Origin: Eledone cirrhosa
Lineage: Eukaryota
Assembly (NCBI GenBank): GCA_964016885.1
Contig: OZ024742.1
Location: 143,406,001-143,470,000, forward strand
Direction: 5' to 3'
Length of the DNA stretch: 64,000 nucleotides
In this document: positions 7,850-14,460 of the stretch, in pieces
Layout of the letters: the number at the start of each line of letters is the position of its first letter
Numbering within the stretch: position 1 is the stretch's first letter
The notes under the pieces: generated by a model
Seen by the model: only the letters and a program-made list of their open reading frames with translations
The model's database searches: none
What the model was told of the DNA's origin: nothing
Translations under genes and position numbers: made by a program

Positions 7850-8390
7850 ATAACGTAATAAGTGTTTCCAAACGTGTGGACAACGCGAGAAAAGCTCATT
7901 CCTTGAATTCAGACGATTACGCTATTACGCAACCTCCCCAGGGTATTGATTCTTTCTTAAATGTACAGCCCACAAGTCAGGTTCCCATTTCCGTATGGCT
8001 TAGGCTCAGTAATAACTTTCCATGAATGGAGTAATCCATGCTTGCGTCCTTGAGGGACCATATGTGGCTCGCGAGCTTCGTGGACGATCGTTTGTCCGGG
8101 GGTATCTGAATGTCGACAGATGATTCACGAAGCGTTCTTTAAACCGGCCCTCCGTCATACCTATATAGGATTTGACCTCTTGTTGTTGATTTGGTCGGTT
8201 AGAAGTGTCCACAGCTTCATAAATTACAGCGGATGTGTTACATTGTTGTTGAAGGGGACAAGCTTCAGACCTTCGGTAAGAGTATCTTTTGTGGGGTTCT
8301 GCTCTTAGGGTTGTTGGTGATGTGGACCTTCATATTCTTAGCACATGAGTATCCTAGTTTCACCCTGTGTCTGTTAAAGATGGCGCGGTA
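7850..8390 (-). mobile_element. Degenerate PLE GIY-YIG fragment
   Basis: SYIGMTEGRFKERFVNHLSTFRYP; homologous to the 5115 ORF, with frameshifts. Confidence 0.8.
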
Positions 8391-9540: not shown

Positions 9541-9547
<7 letters not shown>

Positions 9548-9757
9548 GTGATTTTTTTTTTACAAAATAAAAAATAACCGAGGTGTCCTACACGAGTGAA
9601 AGTATAAAGAAAAAAAGATGAAATCGAAAATGCAACTGGAGTCTTATTTTAAAAAAATATATATATTTATTTGGTTCCTTTACCGGTTTCGCAGTTGTTC
9701 TGCTTTTCAAAAGTAGAGTTGAGATGGAGGGTCTGTGGTTTTTCTCACAGAAAAAAA

Positions 9758-9791
<34 letters not shown>

Positions 9792-9934
9792 TATAAGGAA
9801 CCAAATAAATATATATATTTTTTTAAAAATAAGACTCCAGTTGCATTTTCGATTTCATCTTTTTTCTTTATACTTTCACTCGTGTAGGACACCTGGGTTA
9901 TTTTTCATTTTGTAAAAATACCCTCACATTCTAA
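9541..9934. mobile_element. Fold-back pLTR-like element in (TA)n
   Basis: 9541-9680 is inverted at 9795-9934; a related copy starts at about 26522; HHR-like motif on the minus strand at 9678-9713. Confidence 0.8.
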
Positions 9935-10088
9935 TATATATATATATATATATAGTTAGAGAAGCAAAAAATTGCTTATTGTGATCCAGTTTTTGGTTAA
10001 GAAAGCCAGTTTCATGGAGGGTTTCAACGTGCAGTTAGGGGTAACTCCACAAGTTTGTAAGAATTCCGTTCAATCTTGGAGTATAAAG

Positions 10089-10207
10089 TATAAAAGAGAA
10101 AACACAGGTAAGCATTAAGAGAAGGATTTTATCCAGGTATTTACGACCGTATTTAATACCTGGATAAAATCCTTCTCTTAATGCTTACCTGTGTTTTCTC
10201 TTTTATA
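10089..10207. repeat. Perfect 53-bp-arm hairpin
   Basis: 10089-10141 pairs with 10155-10207, 13-nt loop. Confidence 0.9.
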
Positions 10208-10216
10208 TATATATAT

Positions 10217-11401
10217 ATGAGAGAGGTAAAATAAGAAAATTATAAAAATTAACTTACTTACTAAAATTTCACTCCAACTAATTAGTTTCTGAAAGGGAAT
10301 AAACATAGTTTCCGAAGAAACGTACGGAGAAGCCTTTCGTCATCAGGGAAGTCTATTCTCAGCTAAGTTTCCAGGCAATACGTGGACACAGGGAACTTAT
10401 ACAAAAATAATTCAGTGGATGGAAAAAAGCAAAGCGTGGACTAAGTTCCAAGCCATTTAAAAAATCACTGCCTACTGCGTCGGTGGCAAATTCAAAAGAA
10501 TCAATCACGTGACATCGAGGTCAATCAGTGAAGAGTGGTTTGTTAAGAAGACAGCAGCCGGACCGTTACTATGAACTATAGTAGCAGTTTTGGCCAATTT
10601 TGGCTCGACAAAATAATTTGGAGATAATTATAAAGAATTAGTATATCTACTAACATATATATACAGATGCATACCTATGCCAGCAAATATATAGGTTTTG
10701 TCTTAGTAACTTTGTGGTTCAATGCATGGGGATGCAGAACAATAATATGAGAGACGTAAAATAAGAAAATTATAAAAATTAACTTACTTACTAAAATTTC
10801 ACTCCAACTAATTAGTTTCTGAAAGGGAATAAACATATTTTCCGAAGAAATGTACGGAGAAGCCTTTCGTCATCAGGGAAGTCTATTCTCAGCTAAGTTT
10901 CCAGGCAATACGTTGACACAGGGAACTTATACAAAAATAATTCAGTGGATGGAAAAAAACAAAGCGTGGACTAAGTTCCAAGCCATTGAAAAAATCACTG
11001 CCTACTACTTTTGAATTTGCCACCGACGCAGTAGGCAGTGATTTTTTAAATGGCTTGGAACTTAGTCCACGCTTTGCTTTTTTCCATCCACTGAATTATT
11101 TTTGTATAAGTTCCCTGTGTCCACGTATTGCCTGGAAACTTAGCTGAGAATAGACTTCCCTGATGACGAAAGGCTTCTCCGTACGTTTCTTCGGAAACTA
11201 TGTTTATTCCCTTTCAGAAACTAATTAGTTGGAGTGAAATTTTAGTAAGTAAGTTAATTTTTATAATTTTCTTAGTTTACGTCTCTCATATTATTGTTCT
11301 GCATCCCCATGCATTGAACCACAAAGTTACTAAGACAAAAACCTATATATTTGCTGGCATAGGTATGCATCTGTATATATATGTTAGTAGATATTCTAAT
11401 T

Positions 11402-11406
<5 letters not shown>
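10217..11406. mobile_element. Non-coding 530-bp tandem unit plus inverted arm, with three HHRs
   Basis: ACTCCAACTA at 10271 and 10801 gives period 530; inverted arm 11008-11406; flanked by (TA)n. Confidence 0.85.
11154..11235 (+). ncRNA. Type I hammerhead ribozyme with extended domain II
   Basis: TTCC-CTGATGA-C-GAAAGG-[36 nt]-CCTTTC-A-GAA-ACTAATTAGT-T-GGAG; minus-strand copies at 10271-10352 and 10801-10882. Confidence 0.65.
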
Positions 11407-11483
<77 letters not shown>

Positions 11484-11540
11484 ATATATAAAATAAAGTT
11501 AAATAAAAAGTCAAATGTTTAGAATTTAGCTTCGTTTATT

Positions 11541-11595
11541 ACTGCTATATATATTTCAGTGACAGCCATCTTTGGCTGTGACCTCTTCAGGCAGT
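11541..11595 (-). ncRNA. Type I hammerhead ribozyme
   Basis: ACTGC-CTGAAGA-GGTCACAGCC..GGCTGTCACT-GAA-ATATATAT-A-GCAGT. Confidence 0.8.
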
Positions 11596-12001
11596 CCGAA
11601 TTAGTGTGGTATAGACAAGTATATATGTTGTTGAGGTGTATAATATTGTCAATACTCTGATATGCCCAGTTCCTGGTTGGGTTGTTAGGAACTGGAATCA
11701 TATGAATTCAAACAAACGAATTTCAGTGTCAAAGGGCCTCTTCTCCTCTCATTGGTCAGTTGTTAGAACATTCCTCATTCTAAGTGTTGTTATTGTTGGA
11801 GTTAGCTTAAAAAATTGATAAAGTGGTAGAAGGGACAAGGTGTTAAAGGAACAAAATAACAAAAAAAGTGTCAAACTTCCCATTGGTCAGTTCTGAGAGC
11901 ATTCCTCAGTCAGAAGTCTATAGAATTCTTTCTGGGGTGAGGCTCCCTGTAGTGTTTTTGATTGCTATTGTTAAGTACATTTGACCTCTACCATTATTTT
12001 G

Positions 12002-12182
12002 CGTGGATTGGCAGTATCGGAAGAGGGTCGGATGCCATGCTTTCCAGCATAGTTACGTCCCTTTACGATCTGAGTTCAAATCCCGCCGAGGTTGACTTTG
12101 TCTTTTTTCCTTACGGGGTCGATAAAATAAAGTACCAATAATGAACTGGGTATTTGCTGGCCTTGTGCTTAAAGTAGAAACA
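12002..12182 (+). mobile_element. Near full-length SINE family A with 9-bp TSD
   Basis: TGGCAGTATCGG A-box-like and GAGTTCAAATCC B-box; ATTATTTTG at 11993-12001 and 12183-12191; absent from the mirror arm. Confidence 0.9.
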
Positions 12183-13296
12183 ATTATTTTGGTAGTGTTG
12201 TTGGTGTTGTGGTCAGCTTATGTCTTGCTTCTGTTGACAATTTAGAAGTATCTGTGTGTGTTTTTTCTTCATCCCTCCTGCCACCATCTCTCATAGTGGT
12301 AGTGGTGGTGGTGGGGGGGGGGGGTTTCTTCCATGTATATGAAGAAATATAAGGCAATATATGAAAAAAACAGAAAATAAATAATATAATTTGTATAATT
12401 TGAAAATAAATAATAAATAGAGAATAAAGAATAAAGAATAAAGAATAAAGAATAAAGATTAAATGAAAAATTTGTGAAAAAGTAATGAAAATGAATATGG
12501 AGAAGTGAAAAATAAAGTAGGATAAAGTGTGTGTGTGCTATAACCAATCTCAAGGTCAGAAATATGTTGGATAGATTGGTATGAGGCACAAGATGTTAAA
12601 ATAAGATAATCAAACAAAATGTGTTTGTGTAATAATCAATCTCAACTTAAAAATATATATAAGGTGATACAGTGAAGAATTTATTTTCAAATTATACAAA
12701 TTATATTATTTATTTTCTGTTTTCTTCATATATTGCCTTATATTTCTTCATATACATGGAAGAACCCCCCCCCCTCACCACCACTATCAGAGATGGTGGC
12801 AGGAAGGATGAAGAAAAAACACACACAGATACTTCTAAATTGTCAACAGAAGCAAGACATAAGCTGACCACAACACCAACAACACTACCAAAATAATGGT
12901 AGAGGTCAAATGTACTTAACAATAGCAATCAAAAACACTACAGGGAGCCTCACCCCAGAAAGAATTCTATAGACTTCTGACTGAGGAATGCTCTCAGAAC
13001 TGACTAATGGGAAGTTTGACACCATTTTTGTTATTTTGTTCCTTTAACACCTTGTCCCTTCTACCACTTTATCAATTTTTTAAGCTAACTCCAACAATAA
13101 CAACACTTAGAATGAGGAATGTTCTAACAACTGACCAATGAGAGGAGAAGAGGACCTTTGACACTGAAATTCGTTTGTTTGAATTCTTATGATTCCAGTT
13201 CCTAAAACAACCCAACCAGGAACTGGGCATATCAGAGTATTGACAATATTATACACCTCAACAACATATATACTTGTCTATACCACACTAATTCGG

Positions 13297-13351
13297 ACTA
13301 CCTGAAGAGGTCACAGCCAAAGATAGCTGTCACTGAAATATATATAGCAGC
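13297..13351 (+). ncRNA. Hammerhead ribozyme copy with weakened stem I
   Basis: Core CTGAAGA/GAAA intact; stem I reads ACTAC/GCAGC. Confidence 0.6.
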
Positions 13352-13500
13352 AATAAACGAAGCTAAATTCTAAACATTTGACTTTTTATTTAACTTTATT
13401 TTACATTACTCCGGAGTAACCAAACCAACCTGCGCACTTCGTCGAGTGCTCCAGCCTGCATACTGAGGTGTTGGTATACAACCAACATATACTCAAAATC

Positions 13501-13974: not shown

Positions 13975-14460
13975 ACACCTTTCTCAACATTCGTCTCCAA
14001 CATTCAACTCCAACCATAATTTTCAGTAGCACCACTCCATATAAATTCCTCAATTTAAGAATGACCTGTAGTATCTATTTCATACTATTAACCTTAATTG
14101 AATATATATCTGACCAGGAATGCCTTTTGTGAAAATCAATCATATGAAACTATTGACATCTTGCCTGACGGTTTGAACTTTACAACACCACATGCCTCTT
14201 TGAGGTCAAATACCAACCCTACTAACATCTACAAACCGACCAATGAGAATCAAGACTATTCCTGCTGACAACATTAAATTATTCCTAACAAGTTCATATG
14301 TCCCAAGGCTCTGATACCATCAACACTATAAACACAGAGCTGGCATATCTAAGAACTGACTAACTGCCTGATGAGGTCATAGCCATTCAATGGCTATCAT
14401 CGAAATATATATAGCAGTAAATAAAGGATTATGAGTTCATGCAATTGACTTATGTTTCGT
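13975..14460 (+). mobile_element. pLTR-like fragment with HHR at 14363-14418
   Basis: ACTGC-CTGATGA-GGTCATAGCCAT-TCA-ATGGCTATCATC-GAA-ATATATAT-A-GCAGT, then AATAAA and (TA)n. Confidence 0.75.

What the first reader, a model, noticed from the sequence alone, without database searches (positions are those of the whole stretch)
10217..11406. 530-bp HHR-delimited monomer: candidate retrozyme or circular RNA
About 1.5 tandem monomers carry HHRs exactly 530 bp apart with no ORF. The inverted arm also reads across the monomer junction, so the template was multimeric or circular. Double cleavage would release a unit-length RNA.
Basis: partly seen in the sequence, partly recalled or inferred. Interest (0 to 1): 0.75.

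Follow-up and report, generated by a model that had tools for sequence, protein, structure and literature searches.

The report
Hammerhead retrozyme with Penelope insertion scars
This is one copy of an abundant, protein-free 530-base jumping repeat that carries a predicted self-cutting RNA and lands back-to-back in TA repeats just as Penelope-type transposons do, so it likely borrows their enzyme; it belongs to a known class, and whether it travels as an RNA circle is untested.

Summary
Observation confirmed: 530+260 bp on one arm, a 400-bp inverted arm, three hammerhead motifs, no ORF, TA tracts on both sides. The ribozyme is a type I hammerhead with a long, covarying helix II and palindromic helix III; 9,143 such motifs lie in the genome, in subfamilies 67-99% alike with units of mostly 518-545 bp. 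It is not the pLTR of a coding element in the sample: none of 178 loci has an ORF running into the unit. Insertions follow Penelope rules: head-to-head, in (TA)n, with two fixed outer ends 118 nt apart, one of each in 77 of 79 scorable two-armed copies; coding Penelope-like families here do the same, and several hybrids join the two. Best reading: a non-autonomous Penelope-like element, i.e. a non-LTR retrozyme. A circular template fits (arms cross uncut sites; both arms share variants) but so does a poorly cleaved linear multimer; no RNA data. The parent enzyme was not found. The scan reported the same kind of element in other families of this genome.

The parts
10205..10218 (.). (TA)n tract, left target flank
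10217..11006 (-). Arm A: 790 nt (one unit plus 260 nt); RNA sense is the minus strand; outer end at fixed site A
10271..10352 (-). Type I hammerhead 1 (helix I 4 bp, long helix II, palindromic helix III); predicted cut between 10276 and 10275
10276..10805 (-). Predicted 530-nt cut-to-cut monomer (not shown to exist as RNA)
10629..10746 (-). 118-nt segment between fixed ends A and B (tail), with a long hairpin kept in the sister subfamily
10801..10882 (-). Type I hammerhead 2; core intact, two changes in the distal helix II hairpin; predicted cut between 10806 and 10805
11006..11008 (.). Head-to-head (5'-to-5') junction of the two arms
11008..11408 (+). Arm B: about 400 nt (282 + 118); outer end at fixed site B (11404-11408, blurred by TA)
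11154..11235 (+). Type I hammerhead 3 in arm B; predicted cut after 11230
11405..11473 (.). (TA)n tract, right target flank

Best explanation
It is a two-armed insertion of a non-coding 530-bp hammerhead-bearing repeat that is likely copied in trans by the reverse transcriptase-endonuclease of a Penelope-like element, i.e. a non-LTR retrozyme. Shown in DNA: non-coding tandem unit, covarying hammerhead fold, (TA)n targets, head-to-head arms, two fixed outer ends used one per side, arms that run through uncut ribozyme sites into the next unit. Inferred: the enzyme nicks both strands of a TA tract and primes each strand inside the RNA, one at site A and one at site B; the two cDNAs stop at random places and are joined 5'-to-5'. 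The template must be longer than one unit or endless: I put about 45% on a ligated monomer circle as the main template and 55% on linear multimers that are only partly cleaved. The likely helper is a Hydra-like (TA-targeting) PLE; the family is not identified.
For: Fixed ends and pairing: 77 A+B, 2 B+B, 0 A+A among 79 scorable of 105 two-armed insertions in 178 loci (P=1e-20 against 50%); TA on both sides in 64 of 77. Two coding PLE families show the same one-of-each rule in the 4+4 two-armed copies visible in 60 loci, a third has two fixed ends. No ORF runs into the unit: 27 of 178 loci have a coding PLE hit nearby, one of them upstream in the same sense, 1.6 kb away across a TA run. Contiguous head-to-head hybrids with coding PLE arms at L078/L151, L115/L152 and L234. 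Helix II: 165-180 of 181 distinct motifs pair at each of six positions, with changes on both sides at two positions. 76 distinct full units, longest ATG ORF under 100 aa in all. Literature: internal priming at two sites defines the tail (PMC11167929); tail often at one end only, non-autonomous PLEs with tandem copies exist (PMC8557442); retrozymes derive from pLTRs (10.64898/2026.07.22.740005).
Against: No coding element sharing sequence with the unit was found in 90 loci of three coding families, so descent from a pLTR and the helper's identity are not shown. Hybrids are few and involve three different coding families; one (L023) pairs B with B and one (L274) cannot be scored. 26 of 105 two-armed copies had an end that the script could not class. 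The coding proteins gave no Pfam or PDB match; their PLE/Hydra label rests on motifs compared with PMC8557442. The monomer hammerhead fold lies 4.2 kcal/mol above an alternative fold. No cleavage or RNA evidence.
Confidence: 0.85

Rival explanations
1. The unit is only the pLTR / 3' end of a coding Penelope-like element, and these are 5'-truncated copies.
For: Geometry, tail and hammerhead type are those of pLTRs (PMC4209133, PMC3846280). Only about 180 of thousands of loci were read, so a rare coding parent could be missed.
Against: Arms longer than one unit continue into another unit, up to 2,103 nt in single arms and at least 15 units in one array; none of 178 loci has a contiguous upstream ORF; share of laid contigs that runs on into unlike sequence was 0 in three runs of one sample; the non-coding unit has diversified to 67% identity while keeping its length.
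Confidence: 0.07
2. Within the best explanation: the main template is a covalently closed 530-nt circle copied round and round.
For: 154 of 174 arms cross at least one predicted cut site and 51 cross two or more. Passes within one insertion agree at subfamily-diagnostic sites (3.6% discordant in one arm, 5.0% between arms, 32% between insertions) and share private variants in 14 (same arm) and 13 (opposite arms) insertions against about 1.3 by chance each. No register signal of a heterogeneous linear source: 58 vs 79 and 67 differences in 32 triads. Circular fold z -2.75 and -3.81 on 30 shuffles.
Against: All of this also fits a young homogeneous array or gene conversion. Arm 5' ends are in about two-fold excess just inside the second cut site (20 vs 9.5 expected), as a cleaved linear 5' end would give, though not significant after a scan correction (0.12). 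Only 60% of bases pair; the fold is branched.
Confidence: 0.4
3. A satellite-like tandem repeat amplified at the DNA level, with the hammerhead a passenger.
For: One array of at least 15 units shows patchy shared variants, as local unequal exchange gives.
Against: Most copies are dispersed, short, two-armed, with fixed outer ends and random inner ends; compensatory changes in the ribozyme point to selection on RNA.
Confidence: 0.04

Closest known systems
Animal non-LTR retrozymes (Cervera and de la Pena 2020, PMC7229834; Li, Clavereau and Pollet 2026, 10.64898/2026.07.22.740005)
   Same: Non-coding tandem unit, one type I hammerhead per unit, low GC, no LTR/PBS/PPT, co-occurs with PLEs; 530 bp lies inside the 51-972 bp range of the 2026 preprint.
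   Different: Longer than the 170-400 nt circles tested in 2020; hammerhead is of the PLE minimal style (short helix I, no evident loop 1) with an unusually long helix II; copies are mostly head-to-head two-armed insertions with two fixed ends, which the parts of those papers that I read do not describe; RNA not shown.
pLTR and tail of EN+ Penelope-like elements, Hydra clade in particular (PMC8557442, PMC3846280, PMC11167929)
   Same: Inverted 5'-truncated arm, tail at one end, (TA)n targets, hammerhead just upstream of the ends.
   Different: No ORF; tail of 118 nt rather than 30-40; unit repeats itself instead of flanking an ORF.
Non-autonomous Chlamys PLEs such as MRC1 (PMC8557442)
   Same: Non-coding, pLTR-forming, multicopy head-to-tail insertions.
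   Different: Those resemble their autonomous families at the 3' end and mostly lack hammerheads; no such partner was found here.
PLE minimal hammerheads (PMC4209133)
   Same: Helix I of 4-5 bp, extra base after A9, G-C first pair of helix II, palindromic helix III suited to dimers.
   Different: Helix II domain of about 50 nt with an inner hairpin; an extra A before the GAAA box; U at the cleavage position.

Membership tests
Non-LTR retrozyme | Tandem non-coding units of a few hundred bp | tested here: met
   76 distinct units of 478-623 nt, longest ATG ORF under 100 aa; arrays
Non-LTR retrozyme | A complete type I hammerhead in each of two consecutive units | tested here: met
   Motifs at 10333 and 10863, covariation over 181 motifs
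Non-LTR retrozyme | Canonical loop 1-loop 2 tertiary contacts | tested here: not met
   Helix I stops at 4-5 bp; mussel retrozymes also lack them (PMC7229834), so not strictly defining
Non-LTR retrozyme | Self-cleavage and linear/circular monomer RNA in vivo | not testable with these tools
   Needs bench work or raw RNA reads
Non-autonomous Penelope-like element | PLE insertion geometry: inverted 5'-truncated arm, tail at one end, microsatellite target | tested here: met
Non-autonomous Penelope-like element | Sequence similarity to the ends of an autonomous family | tested here: inconclusive
   None in 90 loci of three coding families; the genome holds far more (18,107 first-look candidates for one EN fragment)
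Autonomous EN+ PLE (pLTR of one) | RT and GIY-YIG ORF between or upstream of the repeats | tested here: not met
   0 of 178 loci with a contiguous same-sense ORF
Plant-type LTR retrozyme | Type III hammerhead in two LTRs with 4-bp TSD | tested here: not met
   Type I topology, tandem units, TA targets

The most novel reading that the evidence does not exclude
A ribozyme-made 530-nt RNA circle is the true transposition intermediate: a dimeric Penelope-like enzyme holds one circle, primes the two target strands at two fixed sites 118 nt apart and rolls round it, which would tie retrozyme circles to PLE proteins mechanistically and explain the tail-at-one-end rule of all EN+ PLEs.
Probability: 0.33. 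Interest if true: 0.65.

Novelty: new member of a known kind. Interest (0 to 1): 0.42.

Why it matters
Which enzyme moves animal retrozymes, and how Penelope elements build their inverted, one-tailed insertions, are both open. Published support for the retrozyme-PLE link, in the papers I read, is co-occurrence and sequence similarity. This family adds insertion footprints (77 of 79 one-of-each ends, hybrids with coding arms) and offers a short, young, high-copy RNA with mapped priming sites for an in vitro priming assay. It does not by itself show a circle.

Tried and rejected
RNA search: no RNA holder listed; three contig runs of one sample were laid only to look for sequence continuing from the unit. 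Short-helix reading of the core (CUGAUGA-C-GAAA) and a type III reading were rejected once the sister subfamily showed covariation of the long helix II. Rfam 0 hits. Looking for short-helix relatives that might mark a coding parent returned 34 matches, by eye nearly all deletion variants of the same family. Two coding families found through hybrids share no sequence with the unit. 'Nearest other insertion' distance test is biased by its averaging and was dropped. Register test for a heterogeneous linear source: negative. Pile-up of arm ends exactly at the cut site: not seen (1 arm at position 59 of 174; 2 at 57-61 against 0.44 expected in motif-selected loci). Dimer energy comparison left out the distal hairpin and is uninformative. 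A possible splice donor after the ribozyme and a short spliced frame were noticed by eye and not tested. Sequence look-up of earlier findings: none.

Full report
Observation. Between TA tracts at 10205-10218 and 11405-11473 lie a 530-bp unit (10217-10746), 260 bp of a second copy (98%), and an inverted arm (11008-11408) that covers unit positions 413-530 and 1-282. No stop-to-stop frame within the unit exceeds 68 aa. Rfam finds nothing at gathering threshold. The window lies in a 3.0-Gb genome of 1,796 contigs; I take it for an animal, perhaps a cephalopod, from recall and from wording in earlier findings, not from a test.

The ribozyme. The core box at 10346-10340 (minus) recurs at 10876-10870 and on the plus strand at 11160. 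The GAAA right after it is part of helix II, not the second box. A sister subfamily, first seen as loose ends and fetched (697 exact 21-mers), is 72-80% alike to the unit and swaps both sides of that helix. Over 181 distinct motifs in the fetched loci (these include overlapping loci; identical motifs counted once) six helix II positions pair in 165-180, four helix I positions in 168-180, helix III is the palindrome in 164 and the cleavage dinucleotide is UU in 172. Related sequences were not corrected for, but at least five helix II types occur. A pattern for both boxes gives 9,143 matches, control 0. The features fit the PLE minimal hammerheads of PMC4209133 (parts 1-2 of 4 read): short helix I, extra base after A9, G-C first pair, palindromic helix III, low activity in vitro. 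The monomer fold is 4.2 kcal/mol above an alternative pairing, which is compatible with cleavage mainly as a dimer (inference).

The family. 76 distinct cut-to-cut units run 478-623 nt, mostly 518-545, in 13 single-linkage clusters at 92%, lowest identity 67%; none has an ATG ORF of 100 aa. One array has at least 15 units. Of the loci fetched I analysed 178, after dropping 28 overlapping, duplicate or unrelated ids; L279 later proved a look-alike of L027 and was dropped and the second half of 66 but not from 49-50. The loci were chosen by best score or as the first motif hits, mostly on contig 1, so they are not a random sample. 105 are two-armed, 67 one-armed, 6 complex. Outer ends fall at two sites, A (position 1) and B (position 413), 118 nt apart on the RNA. 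Among 79 two-armed copies with both ends classed, 77 are A+B, 2 B+B, none A+A; 26 had an unclassed end, about ten of which look by eye like mutated A or B ends that fit the rule. Inner ends are spread over the unit and the junctions show short overlaps or gaps.

Not a pLTR. Long arms continue into another unit. Six PLE protein fragments from fetched loci hit 27 of the 178 loci; only one hit lies upstream in the same sense, 1.6 kb off and across a TA run. Ninety loci from three coding families share no sequence with the unit apart from the hybrid used as query, one separate B-end fragment and two TA-rich 37-mers. A rare coding parent remains possible.

Link to Penelope-like enzymes. An endonuclease fragment at 8006-8329 retrieved a coding family with 18,107 first-look candidates. 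It and two others carry a YRDD reverse-transcriptase motif or a C-terminal GIY-YIG-like region with a CxCX5C-type linker, as described for the TA-targeting Hydra clade (PMC8557442, section 11 and passages read); no tree was built and Pfam and PDB were blank. These families also end at two fixed sites in TA, with one of each in the 8 two-armed copies visible. Three insertions join an arm of our family head-to-head and without TA to a coding arm: L151 (B + partner A), L152 (A + partner B), L234 (A + probable partner B, from four comparisons). L023 joins B to a partner B end, L274 cannot be scored, and L021 and L089 are rearranged chimeras. The partners come from three families, so they show shared machinery or promiscuous template switching, not a specific helper.

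Mechanism. PMC11167929 (parts 1-2 of 4 read) shows in vitro that a PLE protein nicks and extends both strands of AT-rich DNA, is predicted to be a dimer, primes inside the RNA at two sites that define the tail, and does not need hammerhead cleavage. PMC8557442 and PMC3846280 (passages) note the tail at one end only. Our A and B ends match that scheme, with a conserved hairpin between them. Since A and B lie 59 and 177 nt downstream of the predicted cut, a doubly cut linear monomer could give only arms of that length. 154 of 174 mapped arms are longer and 51 cross two or more sites. So the template is an uncut or partly cut multimer, or a circle.

Circle or multimer. For a circle: passes in one insertion agree at 37 diagnostic sites (61 of 1,706 discordant within an arm, 76 of 1,531 between arms, 35,297 of 109,230 between insertions), private variants are shared well above chance, and there is no register signal in 32 triads. 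The cut-to-cut monomer folds better than shuffles (z -3.0 linear on a one-base-shifted version; -2.75 circular) but is branched. The DNA record cannot settle this.

Comparison and novelty. The element meets the DNA-level definition of a non-LTR retrozyme (PMC7229834, parts 2-4 of 6 read; 10.64898/2026.07.22.740005, parts 1-3 of 5 read) and the insertion geometry of a non-autonomous PLE. The preprint already argues that animal retrozymes are non-autonomous PLE derivatives. Six paper searches listed no paper on this family or on the one-of-each end rule in retrozymes; subscription journals and bioRxiv supplements were not visible, and supplements of PMC7229834 and PMC8557442 were not read. PMC6155905 and PMC6962438 were seen as passages only. 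Earlier notes of this scan describe the same kind of element in other families of this genome; none matched this sequence. Verdict: real, a new member of a known kind, useful as a test case; interest 0.42.

Noticed in passing
window 11486-13406: A second two-armed insertion of another family, sharing the TA tract, with a type I hammerhead motif on each arm (11590 minus, 13302 plus); related motifs at 14368 and 61860.
   Followed up: no
window 8006-8329 (-): Fragment of a Hydra-like PLE endonuclease; the family is very abundant.
   Followed up: partly
window 10082-10205 and about 9541-9940: Short inverted-arm insertions between TA tracts next to the element.
   Followed up: no
L158-L176, near the 3' end: A young coding PLE family whose hammerhead-like motif has the U3-A8 core variant, a long helix II and a long helix III.
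   Followed up: partly
L154 1916-10000: Array of at least 15 units of the family with patchy shared variants, as from local amplification.
   Followed up: partly
L297 (reverse strand, 771-1850): A roughly 570-bp tandem non-coding unit that shares its ribozyme end and tail with the coding family of L152: a candidate retrozyme with an evident parent.
   Followed up: no
window 10253-10263 (-): Two overlapping splice-donor-like sites just downstream of the predicted cut; several arm 5' ends map near them.
   Followed up: partly
window 34531 (-) and 34674 (+): Another head-to-head pair of hammerhead-like motifs.
   Followed up: no
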